Part shown: positions 3,007 through 56,696 of the stretch, one piece after another
Numbering within the stretch: position 1 is the first letter of the stretch
Layout of the letters: each line of letters opens with the position of its first letter
Origin: a virus
Length of the DNA stretch: 64,000 nucleotides
Virus record (IMG/VR): IMGVR_UViG_3300031159_000072
Coordinates: 1 to 64,000 of that record
Reading direction: 5' to 3' (one strand)
Program-made: the position numbers and the translations under genes
The notes under the pieces: generated by a model
Told to the model about the DNA's origin: nothing
The model's input: only the letters and a program-made list of their open reading frames with translations
Database searches by the model: none

Positions 3007-3627
3007 TCAGTCGTCGGAGCGCTTGCGTCCGTCGTACCAGTGGTGCTCCTGAATGTGCTTCAGCACGGTTGGCAGCGTGCCCTTCACCTTCTCTTCCGTG
3101 CGGCCGTAGGTGGTCTTGGTGAGGCAGGCCGTCTCCCCGTCTGGCGAAACCAGGAGGGTGTACATGCCGTACTCCGATAGCGTGTGCTCGAACACGCCGT
3201 AACGCACCCACCCGTCGGCGTGCGGCTTGTAGTACTTGATTGTCTTCCGGATACCATCGAGCGTGCGCTCAAAGCTTTTCGGGTCGCCATAGGTCAGCGC
3301 GACCCTAAGCACCGGTTGGCGTGTTTCGCTCCAGATGCAGCCTGTCGTAAAACCCAGCTCGCGCATAACGCGCTCGCGCTCTCGGTAGACCTCCATGCTG
3401 ACGTCGACGCTCTCCGGCGACAGCAGGTAGGCGAGGCGATCATCCGGGCTCAGCGCTTCCAGCATCGCCCTGCCCAAGTCATCCATGAGCCTTTTCCGCT
3501 TGCCATCCAGACGGCGCAGCTTCCGGTCGATCGGCTCCCTCTCCTTGAGCAGCACCGCCACCTGATTATCCACGTCCGCGATCTTCGCTATCAGTTCCTC
3601 GATTGTCGTCGTGGTCACTGCCAGCAC
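3007..3627 (-). CDS. hypothetical phage protein
   Basis: 206-aa ORF, coiled-coil N-terminus, balanced composition. Confidence 0.55.
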   Translation of the reverse strand: MLAVTTTTIEELIAKIADVDNQVAVLLKEREPIDRKLRRLDGKRKRLMDDLGRAMLEALSPDDRLAYLLSPESVDVSMEVYRERERVMRELGFTTGCIWSETRQPVLRVALTYGDPKSFERTLDGIRKTIKYYKPHADGWVRYGVFEHTLSEYGMYTLLVSPDGETACLTKTTYGRTEEKVKGTLPTVLKHIQEHHWYDGRKRSDD

Positions 3628-3857
3628 TCGAATACGTTGTCTTGCTTCAGCTTCTGCTCCGGCACGTCGTCTGGCGGCAGGAGGGTGAACTCATCGGACG
3701 GGTCGTCTACGTACCTGCCATTGCTGTGGTGGAGGTAGCGCGAGCCACCAGCCACACTCTCGACAATCACAAAACCGTCCTTTGCGTGGATGATCTTGTG
3801 CTCAACACCCCGCCCATCCTTCACGATCGTGCCAGGCGGCAGCTTGGTGAAGTCCAT
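3615..3857 (-). CDS. small protein, FDEWE-tail family member A (ends ...NVFECWQ)
   Basis: 80 aa; N-terminal DFTKLPPGTIVKDGRGV... β-barrel-like signature; C-terminal Φ-F-E-C-W-Q; TGATG-coupled to the next member. Confidence 0.6.
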   Translation of the reverse strand: MDFTKLPPGTIVKDGRGVEHKIIHAKDGFVIVESVAGGSRYLHHSNGRYVDDPSDEFTLLPPDDVPEQKLKQDNVFECWQ

Positions 3858-4189
3858 CACTGCCACTCCTCGAACACGCTTCGCGCCGCGCCCGCCTCTC
3901 TCGCCGGCTCGTCCTGCGGCAGCCTGATGGTGTTCGGGTCGAGGTCCCTCGCCGAGGCGCCCTTGAAGCGGGGCTTCGGCGCCTCGTGGTCCACCTGCAT
4001 TTTGGGGCCACAGTAGCGCCCGCTCCGGGTCCACATCCACTGCCTCGAGCCGAGCGGGTCTGCGGCCCTCTGCGCCGCCACCCATTTTCCGGGCTCCACG
4101 TCAACGATCCGCACGGGTATTCTCCCGACACCCTTGAGCCGCACCATCGTGCCTATGGGCAGCTTGGTGAAGTCCACCGCCCGTCTCAT
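3857..4189 (-). CDS. small protein, FDEWE-tail family member B (ends ...SVFEEWQ)
   Basis: 110 aa; MRRAVDFTKLPIGTMVRLKG...; ATGA overlap with member C. Confidence 0.6.
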   Translation of the reverse strand: MRRAVDFTKLPIGTMVRLKGVGRIPVRIVDVEPGKWVAAQRAADPLGSRQWMWTRSGRYCGPKMQVDHEAPKPRFKGASARDLDPNTIRLPQDEPAREAGAARSVFEEWQ

Positions 4190-4515
4190 TGCCACTCCTC
4201 GAACACGCTGGCTCGCTTCTCGTCTTGCCGCCCCCCGTTGGCTGTAGCCCACTGCGGCACGCTGTCGGGGTCTAGGTTTACGCAGACCCCATGTTCACTG
4301 GTGGTCCGACTTTCGATCGGCGGCGGCTCCGATAGGCCCAATGAGTACCTGACGATCCTGCCGTCGGCTGCAGACCAGTATGTGTCCCCGCTCCTTTCTG
4401 CCCTTATCCGGACGCACCCGTCTCGCACGTCAATGATCTCGACGTTTCTTCCGCAGTAGTCCTTCACCACAGTGCCGATCGGAAGCGTGGTGAAGTCTGG
4501 CCGCTTCATTGACAT
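4186..4515 (-). CDS. small protein, FDEWE-tail family member C (ends ...SVFEEWQ)
   Basis: 109 aa; MSMKRPDFTTLPIGTVVKDYCGRNVEIIDVRDG... Confidence 0.6.
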   Translation of the reverse strand: MSMKRPDFTTLPIGTVVKDYCGRNVEIIDVRDGCVRIRAERSGDTYWSAADGRIVRYSLGLSEPPPIESRTTSEHGVCVNLDPDSVPQWATANGGRQDEKRASVFEEWQ

Positions 4516-4676
4516 TCCTCGATCACCGTCTTGATCCGTTCGTGATCCTTGTGTCTGATCCGCTTCCGCCGCACCGCCTTGGCCACCCGCAGCCAGAACC
4601 GCATGTCTCTGGTTTCGTGCAGGGCGAGCCAAGCGAGCGCGACCGTGTATCGACGGCGGCGCTTATTCCCACTCAT
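4506..4676 (-). CDS. small basic protein (56 aa) ending ...VIEECQ, overlapping neighbours
   Basis: MSGNKRRRRYTV...RHKDHERIKTVIEECQ; its ATG lies inside the FDEWE codons of member D and its stop overlaps the ATG of member C; tail resembles the family motif. Confidence 0.3.
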   Translation of the reverse strand: MSGNKRRRRYTVALAWLALHETRDMRFWLRVAKAVRRKRIRHKDHERIKTVIEECQ

Positions 4677-4920
4677 CGAAGACGGCGGTTTTTGGTGTGC
4701 GCTCGGCCTTAAGTTCGACCACACGAGCGCGCAGATGACAGGGGTAGTCCGGGTTATCCTCCTCGCCGACGAACAGTCCGTTCCATCTGTAGAAGAAGGT
4801 CTGTCTACCGTCGTGGATGGTGTAGTCACCGTCCTTATCGGGGCCACCCGTGAGCGTCACCATGCGGCCATCTATCGTCACGAACTGGTCGCCTTTTTCG
4901 GCTTTGCTCAGGTCGATCAT
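4663..4920 (-). CDS. small protein, FDEWE-tail family member D (ends ...AVFDEWE)
   Basis: 85 aa; EKGDQFVTIDGRMVTLTGGPDKDGDYTI (GDxV...GGP...MTV-like small β-barrel signature). Confidence 0.65.
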   Translation of the reverse strand: MIDLSKAEKGDQFVTIDGRMVTLTGGPDKDGDYTIHDGRQTFFYRWNGLFVGEEDNPDYPCHLRARVVELKAERTPKTAVFDEWE

Positions 4921-4923
4921 GGG

Positions 4924-5187
4924 TTACTCCCACTCATCGAAAAGTACGCGCTTCTCCAAGGGCTTCTCGTCATCCCCGACCTTCGCCGCCACGACGCGCC
5001 AATCTTCCGTTGTCCCGTACTTTTCCGGCAGGGCCGAGCAGATCCTCCCATCTGCCCCGTACCAGGCTGTTCCGGCTCCAGGGAGGAAGATGCAGAACGG
5101 GATATTGCTCTGGTCGACGTACGTTATCGTGCCGATCACCCCGTTCTTGCAGCGGACACGATCGCCAACCACGCATCCTTCGAGCAT
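4924..5187 (-). CDS. small protein, FDEWE-tail family member E (ends ...VLFDEWE)
   Basis: 87 aa; 3-nt spacer from neighbours; VVGDRVRCKNGVIGTITYVD...WYGADG. Confidence 0.65.
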   Translation of the reverse strand: MLEGCVVGDRVRCKNGVIGTITYVDQSNIPFCIFLPGAGTAWYGADGRICSALPEKYGTTEDWRVVAAKVGDDEKPLEKRVLFDEWE

Positions 5188-5190
5188 CGG

Positions 5191-5436
5191 TCACTCCCAC
5201 TCATCGAACACCTTGGACAGGCGGGTTAGCGTCATGGCAGATGCGTCGTCGACCAGCGCGTAGCCATCATGGTCGGAGCAGCAGTGAGGATCGCCATCGT
5301 AATGGAGCCAAAGCTCCTGGCCGTCGTCGAACTTGACCTTGTACGGTATCTCCAGGTCATCAACGTCGACGTCGATGACGATTCCCCTCACGCCGTTCTT
5401 GGCCATTACGCGCTCTCCTTTCTCGAGTATTCGCAT
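5191..5436 (-). CDS. small protein, FDEWE-tail family member F (ends ...KVFDEWE)
   Basis: 81 aa; EKGERVMAKNGVRGIVIDVD... Confidence 0.65.
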   Translation of the reverse strand: MRILEKGERVMAKNGVRGIVIDVDVDDLEIPYKVKFDDGQELWLHYDGDPHCCSDHDGYALVDDASAMTLTRLSKVFDEWE

Positions 5437-5439
5437 CGC

Positions 5440-5717
5440 TCACTCCCACTCGTCGAAGAGTGCCGGCCTTGCGGCCGGCGTCTCCTGCTCCTTCGGGTAG
5501 GGAAACTCCACGATGTTGAGGGGATGTTGCGTGCCTGGGTCGACACCGCCATAGGTCCCGTCGGCCCAGTACCATGTTGCGCCCCAGTTCCCGAAGGAGA
5601 TGGCGACGGGGACTCGGCCTGAGTACGGGTCGACCGCGGTGATCTCGCCAATCTGACCGTCTCTAGTGCGGACCTTGTCGCCGATCCGGCCCCCCCCCCC
5701 TCGAAGATGTTGAGCAT
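5440..5717 (-). pseudogene. FDEWE-tail family member G, frame-disrupted at a poly-G(10-11) tract (5690-5700); possible slippage site
   Basis: ATG at 5717 reads MLNIFEGGG, then the frame changes inside the homopolymer; the other frame continues GRIGDKVRTRDGQIGEITAVDP...WYWADG...ALFDEWE*. A run length of 9 or 12 would give one 92-aa member. Confidence 0.5.
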
Positions 5718-5720
5718 GCC

Positions 5721-7766
5721 TCACCGCCTGCCCAGCGCCTTCGACACCGCCCGGTCCGCCGAGAGCAGGTCCTTGTTGTCGACCCGGAAGCGCTCGCCGA
5801 GCAGCATGCGGGCGATGTTGTCGAGCACGCCTTTGGGCAGCTCGGCGAGGCTGTTCAGCACCTGGTAGCGCGGATAGAACTGGCTGACCGCATCGCTCAT
5901 GATGCCGATGCCAATCAGCTTCACGCCCGTCAGCTCGACATAGTCGACGACGTTGCGCAGCCAGTTGTAGATGTGCTGCCTGCCGAAGCTGCTCATGTGG
6001 GCGGGGTATCCATCCGACATGACCAGCAGGATCTTCCTGGCTTCGCGCCGCTTCATGAGGCGGCGGTGCGCCACGAGGACGGCGTCGCCGTCGGAGTTGT
6101 TGCCGCCGGCGCAGGCGGTGATGTGGCCCATCGCCCGTCTGGCTTCCCGCAGGCTCTCGTTGAAGTCCTTGAACACGTAGATGTCCAGCGGCTCCCAACG
6201 GCTGTACTTCTTGCCGTCGTTGATATCCCTCTGGTACTGCTTGGCACTGGCCTCGTCGAGGAAGCCGGACGAGTTGTTGAAGCCGAGGACCTCGAAGGGC
6301 ACGTTGACCTTCTCAAGAACCTCGGCCAGACAGATCGTCGCCTGCATGGCCAGGTACGCCGGCGAGCCGGACATCGAGCCAGACAGGTCGATCAGGATCG
6401 ACAGCGCCGTGTCGAGCGCCGGCGCCTCCTCCTTCATGCGGTAGACGTTCGACTCGCCGTTGTAGGCGGGGACCAGACGCTTCGTGTCGAGCCGGCCGTA
6501 TTCGTGGCCGCCCCGCCAGTCGGCCCGGAGCTTGGCCATGAGCGCCCGCTCCAGCTTGCGGCGCATCTGGTTCGTGCTGCCCTGCGCGTTCTCGAGGGCG
6601 CGCCGGTACATGCTGTCGCCAGACGGCCGGCTCAGGCGGTGGCCATACGAGAAGTTGTTCGAGTAGTCCGGCCGCCCTCTCTTGTCGACGCCGACGTACT
6701 TGCCGGGGCCGTCGTGGCGCGTGTGGATCTTGTCGTGCGACGTTGACCACGGCCTGTAGCCGGCTTCGATCGAAGTCGACGCATCGCCGAAAACGCGCTT
6801 GATGTTGAGTTCGGTGCCGATCGGCGTTGGCGGCGCTTCCCTGTCCGGATCGTAGACCCGGTCCACCTTCTCGGGGCCGGCGCCCACGCCGCCGGTGCTG
6901 CTGGTCGTATCCGGCGCCTTTGTCATCGTGCCGTCTGGCGCTTCGACCGTGTAGGTGTCGGGGCGCTCGCGCTTACCGGCCTCCGCGCCGTCGCTCCCGC
7001 TCTTGCCTCCGCCTTCGCCTCCGCCGCCGCCGCTGCGCTTCTCCCTCTCGTGCTCATGAACCTCCTTGCACAGACGCTCGGCCAGGTCGATCACGTCCTT
7101 CGTGTTGCGGCAGCCTTCGAGGGCGTCGATCCACAGCTCGACCTTGCGCTGGAGGTCGGCCGGCAGCTTGGCCTTGCACTCGGCGTGGCTGCGGGGCGTG
7201 TAGCCGTCGAGCGTGAATTCGTCGTAACCCGCCCGTTGGAAGCCCTCCCAGGTGATGGCGGCCGGGGCGATTATGCGCCAGTCCTCGACGGCCTCGGGCT
7301 GCTTGGGCAGGTGCTCCGTCAGGAACTCGTGGTTCACGGCGTGGTGGACCGCCGCCAGGTTCTCACGCGAGCCGACGTAGTCGGCGATGATGCGCTTCTC
7401 GATGCGCACGTCCTCAAGCGCGTTCAGGATGTGCGGGAAGAGCTTGTCGCCACGCTCCTCCGCGGCCCTCACCGCCGCCTTGTAGGCGGGCATGTCGGTG
7501 TGCCTGTTGTGTCCCGCTTCGTGGTCACAGTAGCCACGGCCGATCATCACTTGCGCCTTGGTCAGCGTCTTCGTCTGGTCGAGCGCCGGCAGGTAGATCG
7601 TGTCGCCGTCGGTGGCCGCTACCTCGCCCTGGAAGACGACGCGCAGCTTGCCGTCCCGGCTGAAGGTGCGGGCCGCCGCCGACGTCGCATCCATGAAGGT
7701 TCCGGCCGGCATGTAGCCTTCGGCCATCGCCTTGGCGACGGCGTTGTCTGAGCCTTTCTTGGCCAT
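5721..7766 (-). CDS. von Willebrand factor A (vWA) domain protein, CobT-like
   Basis: 681 aa from MAKKGSDNAV...; C-terminal vWA with LSILIDLSGSMSG (MIDAS D-x-S-x-S) ... LLVMSDGYPA; N-terminal YCDHEAGHNRHTD region resembles CobT; upstream 144 codons are GC artefact. Confidence 0.7.
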   Translation of the reverse strand: MAKKGSDNAVAKAMAEGYMPAGTFMDATSAAARTFSRDGKLRVVFQGEVAATDGDTIYLPALDQTKTLTKAQVMIGRGYCDHEAGHNRHTDMPAYKAAVRAAEERGDKLFPHILNALEDVRIEKRIIADYVGSRENLAAVHHAVNHEFLTEHLPKQPEAVEDWRIIAPAAITWEGFQRAGYDEFTLDGYTPRSHAECKAKLPADLQRKVELWIDALEGCRNTKDVIDLAERLCKEVHEHEREKRSGGGGGEGGGKSGSDGAEAGKRERPDTYTVEAPDGTMTKAPDTTSSTGGVGAGPEKVDRVYDPDREAPPTPIGTELNIKRVFGDASTSIEAGYRPWSTSHDKIHTRHDGPGKYVGVDKRGRPDYSNNFSYGHRLSRPSGDSMYRRALENAQGSTNQMRRKLERALMAKLRADWRGGHEYGRLDTKRLVPAYNGESNVYRMKEEAPALDTALSILIDLSGSMSGSPAYLAMQATICLAEVLEKVNVPFEVLGFNNSSGFLDEASAKQYQRDINDGKKYSRWEPLDIYVFKDFNESLREARRAMGHITACAGGNNSDGDAVLVAHRRLMKRREARKILLVMSDGYPAHMSSFGRQHIYNWLRNVVDYVELTGVKLIGIGIMSDAVSQFYPRYQVLNSLAELPKGVLDNIARMLLGERFRVDNKDLLSADRAVSKALGRR

Positions 7767-8062
7767 CAGTGCCTCGTGTCGGTTGTCGGTGCGTTCTGTC
7801 TGGACCAGATGGACGGGTTGCCCATCAGGTCGGTGGTCGGCGTGAAGCCGAGCTGGTGCATGGCCGTGTCCGCCGCCATCGCCCGTTGCTGGGCGAGGGC
7901 GACCTGCTTCTGGAGCCGGTGGTAGGCGACCTCGATGTCGGTGCCCAGGAGACCGCACTGCACCCAGCCGAGGCTGAGGCGCAGGCCACGCCTGCTCCAG
8001 CTTATCTTGAAGCCGTGGAACCGTGTCGTGAACACGACGTAGGCAGTAAAGGCGCGGCTCAT
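7766..8062 (-). CDS. hypothetical small protein (98 aa)
   Basis: Starts MSRAFTAYVVFTTRFHGF...; its stop overlaps the vWA start (TGATG). Confidence 0.45.
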   Translation of the reverse strand: MSRAFTAYVVFTTRFHGFKISWSRRGLRLSLGWVQCGLLGTDIEVAYHRLQKQVALAQQRAMAADTAMHQLGFTPTTDLMGNPSIWSRQNAPTTDTRH

Positions 8063-8250
8063 GGCCTCCTTCCCGCTTGCGCTCGCTGCCTTTCGTAATC
8101 CGGGTGCTCCCTGCTGTTGCACCCCATCCGCACAGACCACTGGCTGAACGGGTTGTGCAGGGCGACCAGGCCGCAGTGCTTGCAGACAGACCGCCCAATG
8201 CGCTTGTTCAGCTCCATGTTGTGCGGCTCGATCTTGAAGGCGCGGCTCAT
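8059..8250 (-). CDS. hypothetical small protein (63 aa), possible Zn-binding (CKHC)
   Basis: MSRAFKIEPHNMELNKRIGRSVCKHCG...; shares the ggcgcggctcATG start context with the downstream gene. Confidence 0.4.
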   Translation of the reverse strand: MSRAFKIEPHNMELNKRIGRSVCKHCGLVALHNPFSQWSVRMGCNSREHPDYERQRAQAGRRP

Positions 8251-8286
8251 GCCGCGCCTCCCTCGTGCATCTTACGCACCCCTGCC

Positions 8287-10281
8287 TCACTTGAACGTCC
8301 GGTTCACGTACTCGTTGATGCGCGCCCGGTCCTGCTTCGTGGCCTTGGATAGGATCGTCATGTCGAGGGCGAACTCGACGGCGTCCTTCGGCTTCGGCGT
8401 CAGGGGCAGGAAGTGGACAACCGCCTCGGCCAGGGCGGCCAGGCCACGGGGGCTGACCGTCTGGCAGGTGTCACCCTGGATGAAGCCCTGGCGGACCTCG
8501 GTGGCGAAGTTGGTGATCTGCTCCGCCATGTCGGCGCTGAGCGCCGGCACCAGCTCCTGGAGCAGCTTCGCCTCTTCCTCCTTCTTGAGGTACTCGACCT
8601 CGATCCAGGTGGTGAAGCGGTCGAGCAGCGCCTGGCTCTGCGGGCGGGCGCCCTGGTAGGCGCCGAACTCGTCGCCCTGCCCCTGCGTGTTGGCCGTGGC
8701 CACGACCCGGAACATCGGGTTCGGCACGATCAGACGGCCGCCGTCCTCGGCCAGCAGCAGCCCCTTGTCCTCGAGCATGCGCTGGAAGACGTAGGCCACG
8801 TCTGGCCGGATGAAGTCGATCTCGTCGCAGAGCAAGAGGCAGGGCTGCTGCATGGCCTGCACGACGATGCCCTCGACGAACTCGGACTTGGTGACGCCGC
8901 TCTCGTTCTTGAGGACGTCACGGCCGAGCAGGTCCATCCGGGTGATCTCGCTGTCGAAGTTGATGCGGACCATCGGATAGGAAAGCCGGGCGCAGACCTG
9001 CTCGACGAGCGTCGACTTGCCGGTGCCGGTGTGGCCGTGCATCCAGACCTTCTTGTTGCGGGCGATGGCCCACAGCAGGGAGGCCAGCTTGCCGGGCTTG
9101 AACTTGTAGTTCTCGTCCTTGATCGGCACGAGCGGATGCGGGCCGTCCCACTCGAAGGTTGGCACGTCGAAGTCGAGCAGCTTCTGCTTCTTGCCGGTCG
9201 GCGCCGGGAAGACCTCGTTGGCGTTGCGCCAGACGACCTTGCCCGACGGGTAGGCGCCAGACGCGCTGGCCGTCACGGTCGTCGGCGTGGTTGGCACGGA
9301 CGCCAGCTTCCGGCGCAGCTCGTTGACCTCACGCTCCTTGACCGTGATGATCTCGCCCGACTTGGCCAGCGCATCGAAGAGCTGGTTGATGTCCGTCCAC
9401 TTGCCGGACGTGGCCTGCCCCAGCATGGCGTTGATGCCGACGGCGAAGCCCTTGTCGATCGTGATCCTTTCGGCGCTCGGAGCGGGGGCTTCGGTGGCGG
9501 TGGCGGCGTCGGCCATCTTGTAGGCTTCTCCGTAGGTCTCGGTGACGTACTTCATGATCCGCTGGGCGATCTCGCCAGACGGCTCTTCTGCGTCCTCCAG
9601 GTAGTCCGGGTCCTTGCCGCCCTCCTCACGCAGCTTCACGATGCCGGCAACGCTCTTGGTGTCGTCGCCCCAGGCGTTCCGGAACTGGTCGAGGACGGCC
9701 GCCTTGGCGGCCTTGATGTCGTCGGCGTCGATCTTCCCTTCGTGCCCTTCGGCGATACGCTGGCTCATGATGCTGCGCAGCATCTTGCGCACGAGGGCGT
9801 CGAAGCAGTCGGTGGCTTCCCCGGCGGAGGCGTCAGAGAGGTTGGGCTTCTCGATCATTGGTTCTGTTGTTGTGTGCGAGTTGATGTCGTCTACGATGCG
9901 GGCGACGCTTCCTGGCCCGAGCCTGTCGGGCCAACCAAAGGCGAAGCCGGACTTGCTTGATGCGTCGACGCGGCTAAATGCGGCCGGCGCTTTAATGGCC
10001 TTCAGGACATCGCCCCAGTTCACATGCTCAACGAGCAGTGCGAGCAGAACCTCCCAGGCCAGGGAGTCCCGCACGCCCGAGAACGTCGGCCGGACGTTGT
10101 GCTGGTTCGGGCCTGTGCCGCAGATGGGGCTCGCTTCCACGGCGGCCTTGATGTCGGCGGCGATGTTACGCTTGTTTGTCTTGAACTTCTCCGTCACCTG
10201 GCTCCTGAGCCAGGCGCGCTTCTCTTCCAGGCGGGACGAGAGCGCCCGCTTGGCTTCGGCGTAGTCGAGTTTGTAGGTCAT
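8287..10281 (-). CDS. AAA+ ATPase, CobS/MoxR-like (AAA_5), with a ~330-aa N-terminal extension
   Basis: Walker A HGHTGTGKST, Walker B LLLCDEIDF, sensor/arginine region ...VVATANTQG; partner of the downstream vWA gene. Confidence 0.75.
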   Translation of the reverse strand: MTYKLDYAEAKRALSSRLEEKRAWLRSQVTEKFKTNKRNIAADIKAAVEASPICGTGPNQHNVRPTFSGVRDSLAWEVLLALLVEHVNWGDVLKAIKAPAAFSRVDASSKSGFAFGWPDRLGPGSVARIVDDINSHTTTEPMIEKPNLSDASAGEATDCFDALVRKMLRSIMSQRIAEGHEGKIDADDIKAAKAAVLDQFRNAWGDDTKSVAGIVKLREEGGKDPDYLEDAEEPSGEIAQRIMKYVTETYGEAYKMADAATATEAPAPSAERITIDKGFAVGINAMLGQATSGKWTDINQLFDALAKSGEIITVKEREVNELRRKLASVPTTPTTVTASASGAYPSGKVVWRNANEVFPAPTGKKQKLLDFDVPTFEWDGPHPLVPIKDENYKFKPGKLASLLWAIARNKKVWMHGHTGTGKSTLVEQVCARLSYPMVRINFDSEITRMDLLGRDVLKNESGVTKSEFVEGIVVQAMQQPCLLLCDEIDFIRPDVAYVFQRMLEDKGLLLAEDGGRLIVPNPMFRVVATANTQGQGDEFGAYQGARPQSQALLDRFTTWIEVEYLKKEEEAKLLQELVPALSADMAEQITNFATEVRQGFIQGDTCQTVSPRGLAALAEAVVHFLPLTPKPKDAVEFALDMTILSKATKQDRARINEYVNRTFK

Positions 10282-10334
10282 TCGCCTCTCGTGGTGGTTG
10301 GGATGGGGCCGGGATTGGCCCGGCCCGAACCCCC

Positions 10335-10351
10335 AACCCCCTTCGGGGGTT
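10335..10351. repeat. GC tetraloop hairpin repeat AACCCCC-TTCG-GGGGGTT (copy 1), preceded by a second hairpin GGGCCGGG-ATTG-GCCCGGCCC
   Basis: Direct read; the motif recurs at 15913, 19478 and 19566. Confidence 0.6.
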
Positions 10352-10471
10352 ACTGCCTCCGCGCCTCAGAGAGTCGGCGCTGAATGCGTTGCCCGGTGGG
10401 AGACCTCCAGAAGGTCCGGCGCTGCCGGCGGTAGCGACGGATCTGCTTGTGCCGCGCTCGCTTGTTGGCCA

Positions 10472-10750
10472 TTACGCAACGTCTTTGTCCTTCCCGAAAG
10501 GCAGCACGTCCGGCTCTTCGGCCTCTTCCTTCGCCCCCTTCAGACTGTCCGGGTCGATGGCGATGGTGCGCACGCCGGGTATCCGGTTGAGCAGCGGCAT
10601 GAGCATCAGGAGGTTGTGGTTCAACTGGTTGTTCCAGTACCTCAAGGTGTTCGTGCGCCGCACCATCATGTGGTTGACGACGGCGAGCCAGACGGCGAGG
10701 CCGAGGATCAGGCCAAGGATGATGAAGTCGATGATGTTGAGGGTGTTCAT
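10472..10750 (-). CDS. small membrane protein
   Basis: 92 aa; N-terminal TM IIDFIILGLILGLAVWLAVV. Confidence 0.5.
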   Translation of the reverse strand: MNTLNIIDFIILGLILGLAVWLAVVNHMMVRRTNTLRYWNNQLNHNLLMLMPLLNRIPGVRTIAIDPDSLKGAKEEAEEPDVLPFGKDKDVA

Positions 10751-10765
10751 GGGTCGCCTCGTGGA

Positions 10766-11020
10766 TCAGGCTGCGTCTTTCTGGTTGTCTGGGCCGAAGT
10801 GCTTCCCGCCGATGACACGAAGAGCCGGCAGACCGTTGACCTCGGTCTCGACGACGCGCCCGCCGTCCATCTTGACGACGATGCGCAGGAGGTTGAGGAG
10901 CTTGGCCTCCTGATAGGCACAGGCTCTATTGATGAAGTCGATTTTCCTCTGCTGCCTGGCGAGCCAGACGAGCAGCACGATCAGTGCGATCGTCTGGATG
11001 ACCTCGATGTCGATATTCAT
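10766..11020 (-). CDS. small membrane protein
   Basis: 84 aa; TM IQTIALIVLLVWLA; same architecture as the upstream neighbour. Confidence 0.5.
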   Translation of the reverse strand: MNIDIEVIQTIALIVLLVWLARQQRKIDFINRACAYQEAKLLNLLRIVVKMDGGRVVETEVNGLPALRVIGGKHFGPDNQKDAA

Positions 11021-11074
11021 GCCGTCACCCCCGGCAAGGGTGGCCGGCAGGCGCCGGCCACCCGGTTGCGTGCG

Positions 11075-11920
11075 TCAGCGAATGTTCACGAAGGGCGTGG
11101 CGGAGCCAGGCAGCATGGTCGTCGGCAGCACGCCGTTCCAGCGCTCGGCAGCGATGAGCTGCACGAGGTCGGGGTTATCCCGCAGCGCCCTGCCGCGGGC
11201 GGCGATGGCTGCCGCCTCGGCTTCGCCCCGTGCCCTCGTGGCGTAGGCTTCAGCGTCGGCCGCCATCTTGGTGGCCGTGGCCCTGGCCTCCGCCTCGGCG
11301 ACCTGGCGCTGGGCGTTGACCTTCACCTGCTCCAGCTCCTGGCGGGCGCGTTTCACGTCCGCCTCGGCCTTGGCCGCCGCCTCGACGGCCGCTTCGTAGG
11401 CTTCGGAGAAGTCTATGTTCTCGATCTGGATCGACTCGATCCGGACCCAGTCGTTTGACATGCCGGAGCGCACGGCCTCGAGCACGTCGGTGCCGAGCTG
11501 CTCACGCTTGGCCACCACGTCTGCGGCGGTGTAGTCGCCGAAGACTTCCTTGACCCTCTTGTAGACGACGGGGATCACGAGCTTCTCGGCGTAGTCGACG
11601 CCGACCGTGCTGTAGACGTCGAGCACATGAGCCGGGTTGAGCGAATAGTTCACCGTGATCCGGCTCGTCGCCTGCTGGATGTCCCTCGAATAGGAGACCA
11701 CATCGGGGAACTCTGCCTTCTGCGTCTGGATGCTCATGTCCCGGACGCTGTCGATGATCGGCAGTTTGAAGCCGAGGCCAGGCTCGGCGATACCGATGAC
11801 GGCGCCGTTGCGGGTGATGACGCCTCGATGCCCCTCCGGCACCGTGTACCAGGAGCCGAAGAGAATGGAGAGGCCGAGCAGGCCGGCGATGCCGGCGACG
11901 ATGAGAGATACGATACGCAT
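11075..11920 (-). CDS. SPFH/band-7 (prohibitin/HflK-C-like) membrane protein
   Basis: N-terminal TM; PHB domain (GHRGVITRNGAV..., IENIDFSEAYEAAVEAAAKAE...) with an Ala/Glu-rich coiled-coil tail. Confidence 0.8.
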   Translation of the reverse strand: MRIVSLIVAGIAGLLGLSILFGSWYTVPEGHRGVITRNGAVIGIAEPGLGFKLPIIDSVRDMSIQTQKAEFPDVVSYSRDIQQATSRITVNYSLNPAHVLDVYSTVGVDYAEKLVIPVVYKRVKEVFGDYTAADVVAKREQLGTDVLEAVRSGMSNDWVRIESIQIENIDFSEAYEAAVEAAAKAEADVKRARQELEQVKVNAQRQVAEAEARATATKMAADAEAYATRARGEAEAAAIAARGRALRDNPDLVQLIAAERWNGVLPTTMLPGSATPFVNIR

Positions 11921-11923
11921 GGG

Positions 11924-12052
11924 TCAGTTGCCCTTGTTACGTCGAGTGCTTCTGGTGCGGTCGGCCCCGTCGATCCACATCAGGATCTTGTAGAGGCCGA
12001 ACGCCAAGACGGCGGCGACAACGAGACCGCCGATGATTGCGAGCGCGATCAT
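11924..12052 (-). CDS. small single-TM protein (may extend to 12205)
   Basis: MIALAIIGGLVVAAVLAFGLYKILMW...; immediately upstream of the SPFH gene (NfeD-like position). Confidence 0.35.
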   Translation of the reverse strand: MIALAIIGGLVVAAVLAFGLYKILMWIDGADRTRSTRRNKGN

Positions 12053-12113
12053 GCTTGGCTTGTGCGTTGGCTGCGTGGCTTCCGCCTGTACGAGCCCTTG
12101 CCCTTGCGCGGCT

Positions 12114-12416
12114 TCACGCGCTTGGGCTTGAGGGCTCGGAGGGCTTTGGCGATGGGGTTTCGTGGTTTCCGCATTCGACGGGTTCGCATATGATCCTCCC
12201 GTCACGATCCAGACGTGGCGTCAGGCCACTGAATGCGTCGGCCCGGACGTAGTGAACGCCGGTGCGCCGATCGACGTAGAGCAGTAGACCGGAGCGTTTT
12301 TTGGGGCCGTCTGTATCGTCCCTTCCGAATAACCCGCACTCACTGCTGGCTGTGGCAATGATCCGGCACAGCAGGTAGCCGGTCACGATGCCGAGCGCGA
12401 TTGTCATTGCACTCAT
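12114..12416 (-). CDS. hypothetical membrane-anchored protein
   Basis: 100 aa; N-terminal hydrophobic segment IALGIVTGYLLCRIIATASS. Confidence 0.4.
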   Translation of the reverse strand: MSAMTIALGIVTGYLLCRIIATASSECGLFGRDDTDGPKKRSGLLLYVDRRTGVHYVRADAFSGLTPRLDRDGRIICEPVECGNHETPSPKPSEPSSPSA

Positions 12417-12469
12417 GACTCGTCTTCCGTAGGGCGGGGCCGCAGCCCCGCCCGGTCAACGTGCTTCCG

Positions 12470-14167
12470 TTACGCCGCCAGGTCCTCTTGGAACTGCTTG
12501 GCGACGAGCACCGTCCGCTCAATGTGGCTGGCGTCGACGGGCTTGCCCTCGGACTTGGCGAGCGACTGAGCCAGACGGACGGTCGTCTTGATCTGCCGGC
12601 CGTTGATCTCGAAGCGGGCCAGCGCCTTCGGGTCGAGGCCGGTTACGCCGGCGGCGCTGAGCAGGTTGCGCCAGACGGCTTCCCGGTGGGACTCATCGAG
12701 CGGCGGGTACTTGAGGGCGATCGAGATGCGGCTGTGGAACGCCTGGTCGAAGTTCCTGACCCGGTTCGTGGTCAGGAACATGACGCCCTGGTGGTATTCC
12801 AGCAGACGCAGGAAGACGCCGACCATGGCGTTGCGCGTGATGTCGTGCTCGTCACGGGCCTCCAGGAAGATGTCGGCTTCGTCGAGGAGGACCACGGCGT
12901 TCCAGATCTGCGCCATGTCGAGGATCTGGCGCAGGCGATCCTCGAGTTCGTCGGGGCGTGTGCCCAGCTCGCCAACCGACACGCTGTAGAGTGGGCGGTG
13001 CAGCATCTCGGCGACGGCCTCGGCGGTCAGCGTCTTGCCGGTGCCGGGCGTGCCGTGCAGCAGGAAGATGCAGCCGCCGCCCTTGCCCTCGATGACGTCG
13101 GTGAAGGTGCGGCCGGCGTTCTGCACGAGGGCAAGGATCAGGCTCTTCTTGTCGGGGTCGAGGACGAGCGTGTCGAAGGCAGCGTCGTTGAACTCGATGG
13201 GCCGCAGGTGCTCGACGCGCATCTCACCCCACTTCTTGCAGGCGAAGCTGAAACCGTGGACGAACGGCCACGTCCGCCAGAGCTGGCTGTCCGGCAGCTC
13301 CTCAAAGGGGTCGCCAGACGAGTCGTCGTCGTCGAAGTACGAGCGGTCCCGGAAGTACTGGTCGTCGATCCGCTTCATGCTGTTGAGGTCGACCATGACC
13401 CGGCCCTCGGCGCGGAATGTCTGCGTCGACCACCAGTTCTTGCGGATCAGGTGCCCCGAGTAGTGGAGGTAGTTGGCGCCGATGGCGACGTCTCGGAAGA
13501 TGCGCCCGCGCTTGGTGAGGGTCTCACGATCGGCGTCGCTGAGCGGCCGGACGGGCAGCTCGTCGAACCTCACGGTGCCCTTGAACCAACTGATGCGGAA
13601 GTCGTGCTTCCGGTGGATGAACTTTGAGCCGTTCGTGTCGACGACGGTGATGATGATGTTGAAGTAGCGTCCGAACCACGAAGTGCCGTACTCTGCGATC
13701 TCGACCTCGCCGCCGACCAGGGTGTCCCGGTGTGGCCCAACGATCTTTTGCCCCTTCTGGAAGACGTACCAGAGGAAGTCGAAGGTGATAGCACCGTCGG
13801 CGATCATGGCGTCGATGGTGGCCTGTGTATCGGCGAAGCGCTTTTCCAGCTCGGCGAGGAGGCGGCGGAGGCTGTCGAAGTCGCGGTCGCGTTTCGTTGT
13901 CTCAGCGTACTGACGCATGGAGACGATGTGCCGGAAAAGGCTTTGCACCGGCGCCCGAGGGGCGTCTTGATACCAAACCCCATCCCGGTCCGCGTTCCTC
14001 AGCCATGATCTGGTGTAGACGTCGGTCACGACGACGTACTCGATCGTGTCGATGACCTTGCCGTCCCTGTCCTTCAGCTCCTCGGTCTCGAAGCGGAAGC
14101 CCATCTTCTTCGCGGCGTCATTCGTGGCCGTGGCGACGGTCCCGTCTGCGAGCTGCGCAACGTTCAT
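12470..14167 (-). CDS. AAA ATPase (classical clade) with an unrecognised ~330-aa N-terminal domain
   Basis: C-terminal half has Walker A LLHGTPGTGKT, Walker B VVLLDEADIF, sensor-1 FLTTNR, SRH arginine FDQAFHSR. Confidence 0.75.
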   Translation of the reverse strand: MNVAQLADGTVATATNDAAKKMGFRFETEELKDRDGKVIDTIEYVVVTDVYTRSWLRNADRDGVWYQDAPRAPVQSLFRHIVSMRQYAETTKRDRDFDSLRRLLAELEKRFADTQATIDAMIADGAITFDFLWYVFQKGQKIVGPHRDTLVGGEVEIAEYGTSWFGRYFNIIITVVDTNGSKFIHRKHDFRISWFKGTVRFDELPVRPLSDADRETLTKRGRIFRDVAIGANYLHYSGHLIRKNWWSTQTFRAEGRVMVDLNSMKRIDDQYFRDRSYFDDDDSSGDPFEELPDSQLWRTWPFVHGFSFACKKWGEMRVEHLRPIEFNDAAFDTLVLDPDKKSLILALVQNAGRTFTDVIEGKGGGCIFLLHGTPGTGKTLTAEAVAEMLHRPLYSVSVGELGTRPDELEDRLRQILDMAQIWNAVVLLDEADIFLEARDEHDITRNAMVGVFLRLLEYHQGVMFLTTNRVRNFDQAFHSRISIALKYPPLDESHREAVWRNLLSAAGVTGLDPKALARFEINGRQIKTTVRLAQSLAKSEGKPVDASHIERTVLVAKQFQEDLAA

Positions 14168-14187
14168 GTTCTGCTGTCCTCGTCTGG

Positions 14188-14721
14188 TTACATGCGGATG
14201 GTCTGGGCCGGCACGTCGACGACGGCGCTGGCCGACCCGTAGGCGTTAAGGCTGTCGAGGGCCTCCTGGATCTGGTCGATCGCGTCTGTCAGGGTGAGGT
14301 CCGAGAACCCGTCATGTTCGAGCTTGAACTCCGCCGTGATCGTGCAGCGGACCATGTTGGGGTCGGAGCGCTTCTCTTTGGGCGCGGTCTCCGTGGCGGA
14401 AGCGCCCTGTGCGAAGTCACGCTCGAAAGCCGATCGAAGGTTGACGGCGACCTCGTAGTGGGGGCCGCCCTTGGGGTAATAGCTGCAAGCCAGGCTGCAA
14501 GCGTGCAGCAGAACCTCTCGTTCGATTTGGCTGAACGCGCGCGTTACCTCGACGAGCCCAGGCTTGAGAGCCTGCTCTTTCATTTTCCGCTCCGCGTCGT
14601 ACTTTGCCCGTTGCTTAGCGGCGTGCTCCATCACGTCCGCCGGAGACGGCTTCTCCTCGCCCCTCAGCGCCTTGCTGGCAGTCTTGGCCAGCGGGTCGGC
14701 GGTCTTTTTCTGTCGTGCCAT
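14188..14721 (-). CDS. hypothetical protein (177 aa)
   Basis: Lys/Ala-rich N-terminus; co-directional with, and 20 nt upstream of, the AAA gene. Confidence 0.5.
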   Translation of the reverse strand: MARQKKTADPLAKTASKALRGEEKPSPADVMEHAAKQRAKYDAERKMKEQALKPGLVEVTRAFSQIEREVLLHACSLACSYYPKGGPHYEVAVNLRSAFERDFAQGASATETAPKEKRSDPNMVRCTITAEFKLEHDGFSDLTLTDAIDQIQEALDSLNAYGSASAVVDVPAQTIRM

Positions 14722-14733
14722 GTGCGGTCTCCG

Positions 14734-14940
14734 TCAGTCCTTCGCTGCGATCCACGCCGCCATGCCCAGCAGGGCGCCAAGGACGATGCACATGGTCGCC
14801 ATCGGGCCGATCACGTCCGCCATCAGGATGGTGACGGTCGGCGCCAGAGCGGCGGCGGCGGTGAAGGCGATGCGTCGCAGCAGCTTGTTGCTGGTGCCGT
14901 AGATGCCTAATGCTCGGGACATCCAGTTCGGCAGTTTCAT
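14734..14940 (-). CDS. small two-TM membrane protein
   Basis: 68 aa, two hydrophobic helices. Confidence 0.45.
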   Translation of the reverse strand: MKLPNWMSRALGIYGTSNKLLRRIAFTAAAALAPTVTILMADVIGPMATMCIVLGALLGMAAWIAAKD

Positions 14941-14967
14941 GTGCGGTCTCCGTCTGGTCGGGCGAGA

Positions 14968-55461: not shown

Positions 55462-56286
55462 TCAAGCTGCTGAGGTTTTCGTGGCGGCGGCAGCCGCTTG
55501 GATGGCCTTCAAGTACTTCTCGTGCTCGCTGTCCGGCATGGACATGCGCTCGAACAGCTCGGTGATGTCGACGTGATCGCCGAACCGCTCGACCGGCTTG
55601 AGGCGCCGGCGAGGATCGCGAACCTTGCCGTGCCAGCCGCGGACCTCGTCGGTGATGACGTAGCGGTCGACCTTCGGCGTCGTGCGATCGCCTGACGTCA
55701 CGCGAACGCCGCACAGAACGTTGTCGAAGATGCCGGGAAGCTGCTTGCCGACGGCGTTGCCCTTGACCATGGGCCAGTAGTCCGTGCCGCCGTTGTCGTC
55801 GTTCTCTTCCTTGGCCAGCGCCGTGACGAGAACGTGGTAGGGCAGGTCGCGCACCCACTTGCAGGCGCCGAGCATCTGGCTCGCGTACTCCTGCCACAAC
55901 TGGAAGCCGTTCTTGGAGCCGCGGTGCTTCTCCTCCAGCTCTTCGAGAAGCCGGTCGGACGCCTCGGTGAGGCTGTCCAGCATGATCCACTTGTAGCCGG
56001 CGTGCCTGAACTCGGGGCCGTTGATGATTTGGCAGATGCCCTTGAACGAGTAGATGCCGTTGGCCGGGTCGTGCGGCCCATCCCACGAGCTGAACGGCAG
56101 GTAGTCGATCTTCTCGTGCATGATGGAGCGCAGGCCCGCCTCGCCAGAGATTACGAAGCCGGGGCCATAGCGGCGCTTGTAGTGGACGGCCTGCGTGGTC
56201 TTGCCGAACCCGTGGTGCGCGTAGAGGAGGGTTTTGATAGGGCCGTCGGCCTCCAGGTCGGCGGTGGACATGGGCTTGAACGTCAT
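55462..56286 (-). CDS. Sak4-like RecA-fold ATPase (AAA_24)
   Basis: Walker A LLYAHHGFGKTT; 274 aa; flanked by SSB and a Gp157-like gene, the usual phage recombination-module arrangement. Confidence 0.65.
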   Translation of the reverse strand: MTFKPMSTADLEADGPIKTLLYAHHGFGKTTQAVHYKRRYGPGFVISGEAGLRSIMHEKIDYLPFSSWDGPHDPANGIYSFKGICQIINGPEFRHAGYKWIMLDSLTEASDRLLEELEEKHRGSKNGFQLWQEYASQMLGACKWVRDLPYHVLVTALAKEENDDNGGTDYWPMVKGNAVGKQLPGIFDNVLCGVRVTSGDRTTPKVDRYVITDEVRGWHGKVRDPRRRLKPVERFGDHVDITELFERMSMPDSEHEKYLKAIQAAAAATKTSAA

Positions 56287-56696
56287 GCCACCTCCACCAC
56301 GCTGATGCGAGGCGCGCTAGGCGAGCGGGTGAGCGCCTTGTTCAGCTCCGCTTGCACGTCCGCGTCCAGACGGTCGTAGTCCTTGCGGGCCACGGACAGC
56401 TTGCGCTTCACGTACTCGGGCAGCGCGCGTCCGCCGTACAGCGCCTCAAGCGCCTCGCTGTCCCAGGTCCACTTCTCGGACCGCTTGACGACAATCACCT
56501 TCTTGCCGGCGCGCAAGCTGAACTCGCCGGGCTCCTCGGGCGTGTGCGAGGCGATCTCGGCGGAAACGACGTCCAGCTTTGTCTTGATGATCTCCGCCTG
56601 CTCTTTGAGGCGGAGGTAGTCTTTGGCGAGTTCTTCCAGTCGGCTCGACTTCTCGGGCGGCGCCTCTGCCGCCTCCCATTCATCGAACTTGCTCAT
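56283..56696 (-). CDS. Gp157-like coiled-coil protein beginning MSKFDEWE
   Basis: 137 aa, first gene of the minus-strand early operon; N-terminus carries the FDEWE peptide that forms the C-termini of the array at 3.6-5.7 kb. Confidence 0.5.
   Translation of the reverse strand: MSKFDEWEAAEAPPEKSSRLEELAKDYLRLKEQAEIIKTKLDVVSAEIASHTPEEPGEFSLRAGKKVIVVKRSEKWTWDSEALEALYGGRALPEYVKRKLSVARKDYDRLDADVQAELNKALTRSPSAPRISVVEVA

What the first reader, a model, noticed from the sequence alone, without database searches (positions are those of the whole stretch)
3615..5717. Tandem array of 7-8 small paralogues sharing the invariant C-terminal peptide Φ-F-(D/E)-E-W-(E/Q)-COOH
Seven to eight consecutive minus-strand ORFs of 56-110 aa all end with VFECWQ, VFEEWQ (x2), VIEECQ, VFDEWE, LFDEWE, VFDEWE or LFDEWE, immediately before the stop. 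They are packed with 3-nt spacers or ATGA/TGATG stop-start overlaps.

The N-terminal halves are divergent but share a small β-barrel-like signature (DFTKLPIGT-V.., GD.V....G..G.I..VD; I read this as YodC/DUF2158-like, which is my inference) and a W..ADG segment. The array sits between the lysogeny genes and a vWA/AAA pair, in the fast-evolving 'early-left' region where phages keep anti-defence and host-takeover genes.

An invariant, acidic-aromatic C-terminal tail on a diversifying body looks like a shared docking or targeting peptide. It is reminiscent of the SSB ...DDDIPF tail, and this phage's own SSB ends ...DEIDDSIPF; that link is speculation. I do not recognise this as a described family.
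Basis: seen in the sequence. Interest (0 to 1): 0.85.

Follow-up and report, generated by a model that had tools for sequence, protein, structure and literature searches.

The report
Phage small-protein array sharing a docking tail
A prophage carries seven tandem genes for small Tudor/SH3-like barrel proteins that all end in the same acidic-aromatic peptide (F-D/E-E-W-E/Q), an undescribed family whose tail behaves like a portable docking tag, although its binding partner and its function are unknown.

Summary
Eight packed minus-strand ORFs (3615-5724) end in Φ-F-(D/E)-E-W-(E/Q). Seven are true paralogues. The eighth (VIEECQ, 4506-4676) is not: it is the orthologue of a small basic protein that follows cobT in about 40 phages.

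Each paralogue is predicted as a five-strand Tudor/SH3-like barrel, then a low-confidence linker and tail. No Pfam or PHROG family covers them, and DUF2158 is not matched.

The prophage is a CRP-810-type temperate phage (cobS-cobT...LuxR-integrase). The tail codons also supply the Shine-Dalgarno site for the next gene, but three results point to selection on the peptide itself:
- A sister prophage has the same layout with tails FEEYL, HDEYL and QDEYL. For two of these the SD lies after the stop, or no gene follows closely.
- More distant relatives have a two-domain probable homologue (weak similarity) at the same position, ending IFDYA or MFDFA.
- An exact FDEWE sits at the N-terminus of an unrelated recombination-module protein in this same phage (about 0.006 expected by chance).

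Tails are uniform within a genome and differ between genomes, which suggests a co-evolving partner. The adjacent CobT (vWA) / CobS (AAA+) pair, which lacks CobN, is a candidate. This is untested.

The parts
5440..5724 (-). g8, A-subfamily paralogue, 94 aa, tail LFDEWE. Its GTG start overlaps the cobT stop (GTGA). It contains a poly-G(11) tract at 5690-5700.
   Evidence: (P0004)
5191..5436 (-). g7, A-subfamily paralogue, 81 aa, tail VFDEWE, 3-nt spacer on each side
4924..5187 (-). g6, A-subfamily paralogue, 87 aa, tail LFDEWE. The AF2 model has a 5-strand barrel and a low-confidence C-terminus.
   Evidence: (P0001)
4663..4920 (-). g5, A-subfamily paralogue, 85 aa, tail VFDEWE. The ATG inside its GAT GAG tail codons is the start of g4.
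   Evidence: (P0005)
4506..4676 (-). g4, 56 aa basic protein ending VIEECQ. It is not a paralogue. It is the orthologue of a small protein that follows cobT in about 40 CobT phages, and it splits the array into A and B halves.
   Evidence: E down to 4e-13; its C-terminus resembles the IKAICEELDI end of the closest homologues, by eye; also present in sister L318
4186..4509 (-). g3, B-subfamily paralogue, 107 aa, tail VFEEWQ, ATGA overlaps. The AF2 model has a 5-strand barrel and about 45 low-confidence C-terminal residues.
   Evidence: (P0007)
3857..4189 (-). g2, B-subfamily paralogue, 110 aa, tail VFEEWQ
   Evidence: P0003
3615..3857 (-). g1, B-subfamily paralogue, 80 aa, tail VFECWQ. Its stop overlaps the GTG of the next gene.
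   Evidence: P0002
5721..7766 (-). CobT-like protein (CobT N-domain plus vWA domain with an intact DxSxS MIDAS motif, DLSGS). It is translationally coupled to g8 and is a candidate partner of the tails.
   Evidence: PF06213, PF11775; sequence
8287..10281 (-). CobS-like MoxR-type AAA+ ATPase (AAA_5)
3007..3627 (-). Downstream gene, phrog_7208 (function unknown), coupled to g1
56283..56696 (-). Unrelated 137-aa protein (phrog_2480) that begins MSKFDEWE (motif at 56673-56687). It is the first gene of the AAA_24 / SSB-like / YqaJ-like operon and carries a second, N-terminal instance of the motif.

Best explanation
The locus is a lineage-specific expansion, to seven genes, of an accessory protein family of CRP-810-type temperate phages. 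Each protein is a variable five-strand Tudor/SH3-like barrel joined by a flexible linker to a conserved acidic-aromatic peptide, (Φ)-F-[DE]-E-W-[EQ].

The peptide acts as a short linear docking motif. It brings all seven barrels, and one unrelated recombination-module protein that carries the same motif at its N-terminus, to one common partner. The divergent barrels supply different second specificities.

The partner appears to co-evolve with the phage. The adjacent, translationally coupled CobT-like vWA/MIDAS adaptor and its CobS-like AAA+ motor have no CobN effector in this phage and are the leading candidate, but no more than that. The tail codons also encode the Shine-Dalgarno site of the next cistron, so they are dual-coding.

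What is shown: the anatomy, the predicted fold, conservation of the tail beyond what the SD requires, and recurrence of the motif. What is inferred: the docking function, the identity of the partner and any biological role.
For: 1. The tail is far more conserved than the body: 68% against 22% pairwise identity. AF2 places it after a low-confidence linker in both subfamilies.

2. Sister prophage L318/L319 has the same architecture: cobT, two single-domain genes, a g4-like gene, then a two-domain gene. Its tails are VPFEEYL, IDHDEYL and IQQDEYL. For two of the three tails the SD lies after the stop codon or no gene follows closely (next called gene 166 nt away; an uncalled g4-like ORF lies in that gap), and synonymous codons differ. 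A profile built from the bodies alone finds the two-domain protein at E=7e-11. The whole-protein profile (tail included) scored it E=3.6e-5 against 1.84 billion proteins.

3. More distant relatives (CobT about 40% identical) carry a two-domain probable homologue (weak similarity) at the same position. It ends MSIFDYA, SIFNYS, DSMFDFA or SIFGS, and the SD lies after the stop. Six of the seven such proteins (two sublineages, IFDYA/IFNYS and MFDFA; the SIFGS one does not fit) are the only ORFs among 9181 that fit the relaxed tail pattern.

4. An exact FDEWE follows Met-Ser-Lys at the N-terminus of an unrelated phrog_2480 protein in the same phage. It uses different Ser and Glu codons. The expected chance count is 0.006, or 0.0004 at a terminus.

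5. Within each genome the aromatic and last residues are uniform: W-E/Q in all seven proteins here and Y-L in all three sister proteins. This holds even though the A and B positions predate the split of the two phages.

6. The motif is fixed relative to the stop codon, while the next start sits at -14, -4, -1 or +3 nt.

7. cobT is coupled to g8 by a GTGA overlap and has an intact MIDAS motif. No CobN domain was found in the large ORFs tested. A motor-adaptor-effector model for CobSTN is described in bioRxiv 10.64898/2026.07.21.739949.
Against:
- Every tail in this window also carries a well-placed SD (GGGAG or GAGGAG, 5-6 nt before the next start). Some of the conservation is therefore at the RNA level.
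- The similarity between EWE/EWQ, EYL and FDYA tails is short and could be partly convergent.
- Homology of the two-domain relatives to the array is weak (hhalign probability 53%; HMM E about 1e-3).
- Most CobT phages, including CRP-810 itself and L321, lack the family, so CobST does not require it.
- Only one sister array was found. Gene conversion could also produce uniform tails within a genome.
Confidence: 0.55

Rival explanations
1. The tail is a by-product of translational coupling plus paralogy. The 3' ends are conserved as RNA, because they hold the Shine-Dalgarno site and the stop-start junction for the next cistron, and are kept uniform by gene conversion. On this view the peptide has no function of its own.
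For: All seven tails place GGGAG or GAGGAG 5-6 nt upstream of the next start. The D/E and E/Q differences between subfamilies track the junction type: a 3-nt spacer against an ATGA overlap. In cobavirus-type phages even unrelated genes end in KEFL or LEEYRD, where AAGGAG or GAGGAG precedes an ATGA overlap. The junction is a 24-nt DNA repeat.
Against: - An SD does not require the invariant Phe and Trp or the aliphatic residue at position -6.
- The motif is fixed relative to the stop codon, not to the next start (offsets from -14 to +3 nt).
- Sister and distant relatives keep acidic-aromatic tails where the SD lies after the stop or no gene follows closely.
- The same pentapeptide occurs at an N-terminus with different codons.
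Confidence: 0.12
2. The tail is a ligand for the barrels themselves. SH3/Tudor-like domains bind short peptides, so the paralogues would chain head-to-tail into homo- or hetero-oligomers, or auto-inhibit, with no external partner.
For: The fold class is a classic peptide binder. Seven co-expressed paralogues share one tail. The same module occurs as covalent tandem repeats in other proteins, which suggests that multivalency matters.
Against: AF2 does not dock the tail onto its own barrel; the tail has pLDDT around 50. The alignment was shallow, so this is weak evidence. The barrels are only about 22% identical, so a common peptide pocket is not evident. The N-terminal copy sits on a non-barrel protein.
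Confidence: 0.13
3. The tail is a degron or adaptor tag. It would be read by an AAA+ unfoldase or protease: host ClpXP or Lon, or the phage's own classical AAA protein at 12470-14167, which sits next to an SPFH protein. This would give the family timed turnover or make its members protease modulators.
Against: The motif resembles no known bacterial degron. There is no experimental or co-variation evidence. This is a special case of the docking hypothesis with a different partner.
Confidence: 0.12

Closest known systems
Tudor / SH3-like small beta-barrel domains (PcrA/UvrD C-terminal Tudor domain, KOW, CarD/Mfd RNAP-interacting domain; B. subtilis YorP)
Unannotated 'IDLSK-x-KVGDKVR...WY..DG...DIVE' repeat module, found as 2-5 tandem copies in single polypeptides of phage-like contigs
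   Same: The same domain by HMM (E 1e-13 to 1e-9 for P0008, P0009, P0011, P0014). It is also unannotated in Pfam. In phage contig L314 a single-domain copy lies between a P-loop ATPase and a DUF2201 vWA-like protein.
   Different: Those proteins are covalent repeats without the FDEWE-type tail. Here each domain is a separate gene with its own tail.
SSB C-terminal tip (D-D-D-I-P-F-COOH) and other terminal hub-binding motifs such as clamp-binding QL[SD]LF
   Same: A short acidic or hydrophobic peptide at the end of a disordered linker, shared by proteins that must reach one hub.
   Different: The sequence differs. The tail ends in E/Q, L or A rather than Pro-Phe, it lacks the Gln of clamp motifs, and it also works positionally at an N-terminus. 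The carriers are not OB-fold SSBs. The phage's own SSB-like protein keeps a normal DDSIPF tip.
CobS-CobT-CobN cobaltochelatase (MoxR-type AAA+ motor, vWA adaptor, effector)
   Same: The phage encodes CobS-like and CobT-like proteins with an intact MIDAS motif. The array lies directly downstream, where a client or effector gene could be.
   Different: No CobN was found. The array proteins are unrelated to CobN. A client relationship is a hypothesis only. Most CobT phages lack the array.
Small-ORF families of cobavirus-type podophages ending P-x-E-F-[LF]-x, PKEY[LM]T or VP-x-EML
   Same: Seven to sixteen small (60-95 aa) early genes per genome with divergent bodies and a genome-specific invariant C-terminal peptide. 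They have stop-start overlaps, occur in CobS/CobT phages, and have no Pfam or PHROG family.
   Different: The tail and the bodies are different, and no sequence similarity of the bodies to the array was apparent (no profile comparison was run). The SD contribution is stronger there, since unrelated genes in those phages also end in KEFL. The genes are dispersed through the replication module rather than forming one array.

Membership tests
   hmmscan of all 8 proteins at E<=1 gave no DUF2158 hit. It returned only sub-threshold YajC, DUF1918 and Tudor_5 matches.
Tudor / SH3-like small beta-barrel fold | Five antiparallel strands forming a closed barrel of about 50-60 residues | tested here: met
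Tudor / SH3-like small beta-barrel fold | Membership of a named sequence family (Tudor, KOW, SH3b and similar) | tested here: not met
   No Pfam family above threshold and no PHROG below E=1e-4.
SSB C-terminal tip motif | An acidic run ending in Ile-Pro-Phe with a free alpha-carboxylate, on an OB-fold SSB | tested here: not met
   The tails end W-E or W-Q, the carriers are barrels rather than SSBs, and the motif also occurs at an N-terminus.
Beta-clamp-binding motif | Q-L-[SD]-L-F or Q-x-x-[LM]-F consensus | tested here: not met
   No Gln is present at the required position in any tail, and four residues follow the Phe. The consensus is recalled from knowledge, not retrieved here.
Translational-coupling junction (SD inside the upstream gene's 3' end) | A GGAG-type SD 5-10 nt upstream of a start that abuts or overlaps the stop | tested here: met
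   GGGAG or GAGGAG lies 5-6 nt before the next start at the junctions read.
Translational-coupling junction (SD inside the upstream gene's 3' end) | Conservation explained by the SD alone: it is lost where no coupled gene follows and is fixed relative to the start | tested here: not met
   Tails persist where the SD lies after the stop or no gene follows closely. The motif is fixed to the stop while the next start varies from -14 to +3 nt. There is also an N-terminal copy.
CRP-810-type temperate phages (PMC11288001) | cobS-cobT cluster with a LuxR-family regulator and an integrase in conserved synteny | tested here: met
   AAA_5, CobT/CobT_C and the integrase are present. GerE/LuxR lies next to the integrase in identical metagenome copies. 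CobT is 35% identical to CRP-810 over 98% of its length, with the same gene order.
CobSTN-type motor-adaptor-effector system | AAA+ CobS, plus CobT with a vWA MIDAS motif, plus a CobN effector | tested here: not met
   CobS-like and CobT-like proteins with DLSGS are present. No CobN domain was found in the seven largest other ORFs. Whether the array proteins substitute as clients was not testable with these tools.
Phase-variable homopolymer switch | Tract length varies between otherwise identical genomes and toggles the reading frame | tested here: inconclusive
   G11 in the window and L002, G10 in six other assemblies, with identical flanks. G10 puts g8 out of frame. Assembly error cannot be excluded.

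The most novel reading that the evidence does not exclude
The acidic-aromatic peptide is a phage-specific address tag. It would deliver a diversifying set of Tudor-like adaptor proteins, and a recombination-module protein, to the orphan CobS-CobT motor-adaptor machine, with the tail's carboxylates engaging the CobT vWA MIDAS site. That would give the widespread but functionally unexplained phage cobS/cobT genes their first client set. It would also explain why tails change in concert within a genome, and it might extend to the tail-tagged small-ORF families of cobaviruses.
Probability: 0.15. Interest if true: 0.8.

Novelty: new variant of a known kind. Interest (0 to 1): 0.58.

Why it matters
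Phage early regions are full of small unannotated genes, and there are few handles for grouping them or guessing what they touch. Here a six-residue terminal peptide links seven divergent barrels and one unrelated protein in a single phage. It recurs in altered form in relatives. That predicts a single hub that could be found with a peptide pull-down.

If the hub is CobT/CobS, the result would address the function of the cobS/cobT genes carried by many marine and soil phages. The CRP-810 paper calls that function uncertain. If the hub is a host protein, the family would be a set of multi-specific adaptors or decoys.

The locus is also a clean example of dual coding, in which a peptide motif and a ribosome-binding site share the same 15 nt. 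This is a caution for anyone inferring function from conserved C-termini in tightly coupled operons.

Tried and rejected
- Pfam and PHROG scans of all eight proteins found nothing usable. DUF2158 is rejected.
- The word-indexed homologue search found only the window's own proteins.
- The exhaustive profile search found, besides the window's proteins, multi-repeat proteins with the same module. Its hits to WD40, Big_9 and cadherin proteins were judged spurious beta-repeat matches.
- Tail DNA patterns in IMG/VR gave only chance hits. These were antisense matches within one group of related contigs (same LDGFDEWE stretch), rubredoxin-like ORFs ending DMFEEWQ, and short ORFs.
- The pattern in 185,579 species genomes gave 78 single hits, against roughly 140 expected by chance. 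None resembled the barrel.
Apart from this prophage itself it returned only single hits, so it says little.
- Close-relative searches found nothing, both with CobT and with the 137-aa FDEWE protein. blastn against INPHARED phages also found nothing.
- A link between tail families and CobT phages in general cannot be established. Only CobT loci were sampled deliberately. Random control loci show that such clusters are rare (2 of 123, both artefacts), but these controls are not matched phage genomes.
- The SSB-tail and clamp-motif analogies were rejected on sequence.
- The idea that g8 needs a frameshift from the ATG at 5717 was rejected once the overlapping GTG start was seen.
Full report
**Observation**

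The region 3615-5724 on the minus strand holds eight tightly packed ORFs. A regular-expression scan of all six frames finds ORFs ending in [DE][EC][WC][EQ] only here. The genes are:

| Gene | Coordinates | Length | Tail |
|---|---|---|---|
| g8 | 5440-5724 | 94 aa | LFDEWE |
| g7 | 5191-5436 | 81 aa | VFDEWE |
| g6 | 4924-5187 | 87 aa | LFDEWE |
| g5 | 4663-4920 | 85 aa | VFDEWE |
| g4 | 4506-4676 | 56 aa | VIEECQ |
| g3 | 4186-4509 | 107 aa | VFEEWQ |
| g2 | 3857-4189 | 110 aa | VFEEWQ |
| g1 | 3615-3857 | 80 aa | VFECWQ |

- g8 starts at a GTG that overlaps the stop codon of the upstream vWA gene (GTGA). This matches an independent gene call in one metagenome copy (P0004).
- The junctions are 3-nt spacers (g8/g7/g6/g5), a 14-nt overlap (g5/g4), ATGA overlaps (g4/g3/g2), TGATG (g2/g1) and GTGA (g1 and the next gene).
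- In the seven-protein alignment the last six columns are 68% identical pairwise, against 22% for the rest. This is the most conserved 6-column window; the next best outside the tail region is 40%.
- The junction is also detected as a 24-nt direct-repeat family.
- No minus-strand terminator-like site lies between about 17.9 kb and 1 kb, so the array sits inside a long leftward transcription unit.

**g4 is not a member**

phmmer with g4 against ORFs from 78 CobT-encoding viral loci finds a small basic protein immediately after cobT in about 40 of them, with E down to 4e-13. The family consensus is ...RTEWMRLHPR..MRFWL.V.KRVR.R.VRH.DL..IK.IC.EV... The VIEECQ end of g4 looks equivalent to the ...IKAICEELDI end of that family, by eye from the sequences listed. 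The resemblance to the paralogue tail therefore looks coincidental. g4 divides the array into an A half (g8-g5, tail [VL]FDEWE) and a B half (g3-g1, N-terminus DFTKLPIGT, tail VFE[EC]WQ).

**What the proteins are**

- Pfam and PHROGs give nothing significant, and DUF2158 is absent even at E<=1.
- AF2 models of g6 (pLDDT 75) and g3 (pLDDT 68.5) both show a five-strand barrel followed by a low-confidence C-terminal stretch of 20-45 residues that includes the tail.
- Foldseek against viral models returns only uncharacterised phage proteins.
- An exhaustive profile search of 1.84 billion representative proteins finds two things: the window's own proteins, and proteins with 2-5 tandem copies of the same module (MIDLSK.KVGDKVR.RNG.IG.V...P...WY..DG...DIVE.). 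None of these has the tail and none has a Pfam family. The hits to WD40 and Ig-repeat giants in that list are beta-repeat noise.

**Genomic setting**

- Upstream of the array are a CobT-like protein (CobT N-domain plus vWA, MIDAS motif DLSGS) and a CobS-like AAA_5 ATPase. Further upstream are an SPFH protein and a classical AAA protein.
- Downstream are a phrog_7208 protein, two genes of unknown function, a LuxR/GerE regulator and a tyrosine integrase, followed by bacterial genes.
- This is the synteny described for CRP-810-type temperate phages (PMC11288001). CobT is 35% identical to that of CRP-810 over 98% of its length.
- No CobN domain was found in the large ORFs tested.
- Identical copies of the prophage occur in several metagenomes.

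**Is the tail conserved as a peptide or as RNA?**

Every tail here carries a Shine-Dalgarno-like GGGAG (A type, then TGA-nnn-ATG) or GAGGAG (B type, then TGGCA-ATG) 5-6 nt before the next start. The only variable tail positions, D/E at -4 and E/Q at -1, track the junction type. The tail is therefore dual-coding, and an RNA-only explanation had to be tested. Four results argue that the peptide itself is selected.

1. **Position.** The motif is fixed relative to the stop codon, while the next start lies at -14, -4, -1 or +3 nt.

2. **Sister prophage.** L318/L319 (GC 64%) was found through P0076.
   - Its layout is cobT, a 93-aa gene (...VPFEEYL), a 96-aa gene (...IDHDEYL), a g4-like ORF, then a 176-aa two-domain gene (...IQQDEYL). 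This mirrors cobT / A genes / g4 / B genes here.
   - The second tail is not followed by a closely coupled start. The third has its SD (GGAGGA) after the stop. Glu and Leu codons differ between copies.
   - The two-domain protein is a solid homologue even with a profile from which the tail was removed (E 7e-11).

3. **More distant relatives.** Loci L118, L121-L126, L128, L322 and L323 have CobT about 40% identical.
   - At the same position, after cobT and the g4-like gene, they carry a 206-225-aa probable two-domain homologue ending MSIFDYA, SIFNYS, DSMFDFA or SIFGS, with the SD after the stop.
   - The body similarity is weak: HMM E about 1e-3 and hhalign probability 53%.
   - Even so, these are the top hits among roughly 9000 ORFs. 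Six of them, all but the SIFGS protein of L118, are the only ORFs of 9181 that match the relaxed pattern [ILMV]F[DENG][DE]?[YFW]x? at the C-terminus. The control counts are 5 and 2 when the pattern is anchored elsewhere.

4. **A second instance in this phage.** An exact FDEWE occurs once more in the window. It lies at residues 4-8 of an unrelated 137-aa protein (56283-56696, MSKFDEWEAAE...), which has a good SD. The motif lies outside the region that matches phrog_2480. The gene is the first of the AAA_24 / SSB-like / YqaJ-like operon.
   - Its Ser and Glu codons differ from those of the most similar tail, that of g7.
   - From the phage's own amino-acid composition, the expected number of F[DE]EW[EQ] matches in 15.7k non-array residues is 0.006, and 0.0004 within ten residues of a terminus.
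   - The motif is therefore portable and does not need a free carboxylate.

**Concerted change**

The A and B positions predate the split of this prophage and L318. Yet all seven tails here are E-W-[EQ] and all three in L318 are E-Y-L. This is what a shared partner that differs between the two phages would produce. Gene conversion of the junction is the alternative.

**Distribution**

- Tail-pattern scans of IMG/VR and of 185,579 species genomes found no other array. The metagenome scan was truncated.
- Many CobT phages, including CRP-810 and L321, lack the barrel genes. The family is therefore an accessory in a variable slot, expanded here to seven genes.

**Mechanism proposed**

The proteins would be variable barrels on a flexible leash that ends in a common docking peptide. 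They would act as an adaptor or decoy family converging on one hub.

The neighbouring CobT/CobS pair is the leading candidate hub, for three reasons:
- It is the conserved anchor of the locus.
- It is translationally coupled to the array.
- By analogy with the CobSTN motor-adaptor-effector model (bioRxiv 10.64898/2026.07.21.739949), it lacks its effector in phages.

This assignment is inference, at roughly 0.15-0.2 probability. Host hubs or the phage's other AAA+ protein are equally untested.

**Side observations**

- The poly-G tract in codons 9-12 of g8 is G11 in the window and one assembly, and G10 in six others. G10 puts g8 out of frame from both possible starts.
- Cobavirus-type CobT phages carry their own families of 7-16 small ORFs with genome-specific tails (P.EF[LF]x, PKEY[LM]T, VP.EML) and no annotation. 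Such clusters are rare in 123 control loci.

**Verdict**

This is a real and previously undescribed protein family and terminal motif. There is good indirect evidence that the motif acts as a peptide. The partner and the biological role are unknown.

Noticed in passing
window 5690-5700 (minus strand), codons 9-12 of g8: The poly-G tract is 11 nt in the window and in L002 but 10 nt in L001 and L003-L007, which have identical flanks. G10 puts g8 out of frame from both the GTG (5724) and the ATG (5717). G9 or G12 would put it in frame with the ATG and with cobT. This is either slipped-strand phase variation of the first array gene or a homopolymer assembly error.
   Followed up: partly
window 56283-56696 (-); motif at 56673-56687: An unrelated 137-aa protein (phrog_2480) begins MSKFDEWE. 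It is the first gene of the AAA_24 / SSB-like / YqaJ-like operon. The pentapeptide is the same as in the array tails but uses different codons. The chance expectation is about 0.006.
   Followed up: partly
window 4506-4676 (-); L151, L152, L155-L158 and about 35 other loci directly after cobT: g4 belongs to an unannotated family of 55-70-aa basic proteins (...W..L.P....MRFW..V...V....VR..D...IK.I..EV...). Members almost always sit directly downstream of phage cobT, in both CRP-810-type and cobavirus-type phages. No Pfam or PHROG family covers it.
   Followed up: partly
L025 (PQ867845.1) 4067-14989; L194, L167, L168, L174: Cobavirus-type podophages carry 7-16 small ORFs (60-95 aa) with divergent bodies and a genome-specific invariant C-terminal peptide: [IV]P.EF[LF]x, PKEY[LM]T or VP.EML. 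Most have ATGA overlaps. They have no Pfam or PHROG family and are not mentioned in the cobavirus paper. Part of the motif (the Glu) is the SD of the next gene.
   Followed up: partly
L314 2128-9989: In an unrelated phage contig the same barrel module occurs in four genes. One is a 70-aa single-domain copy wedged between a P-loop ATPase (GGTGCGKT) and a DUF2201 vWA-like metallopeptidase. This is a second association of the module with an ATPase/vWA pair.
   Followed up: no
window 4663-4680: The start codon of g4 is the ATG formed by the GAT GAG (Asp-Glu) codons of the g5 tail, giving a 14-nt overlap. The same out-of-frame ATG exists in the g6 and g7 tails but opens only short ORFs.
   Followed up: no
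window 11075-14167 (-): The same leftward operon encodes an SPFH/Band-7 protein and a classical AAA protein with DUF7025 (PHROG label 'ATP-dependent protease'). This pairing is reminiscent of FtsH-HflK/C. The prophage therefore carries three AAA+-type genes on this arm.
   Followed up: no
window 54936-55448 (-): The protein ending EIDDSIPF, a canonical SSB tip, gives no Pfam or PHROG hit even at lenient thresholds. It is a very divergent SSB or another protein that has borrowed the SSB tip.
   Followed up: no
window 42165-51398 (+): A 3077-aa ORF in the structural module has no Pfam match at E<=1e-4. The 805-aa, 704-aa and 598-aa neighbours also have none.
   Followed up: no
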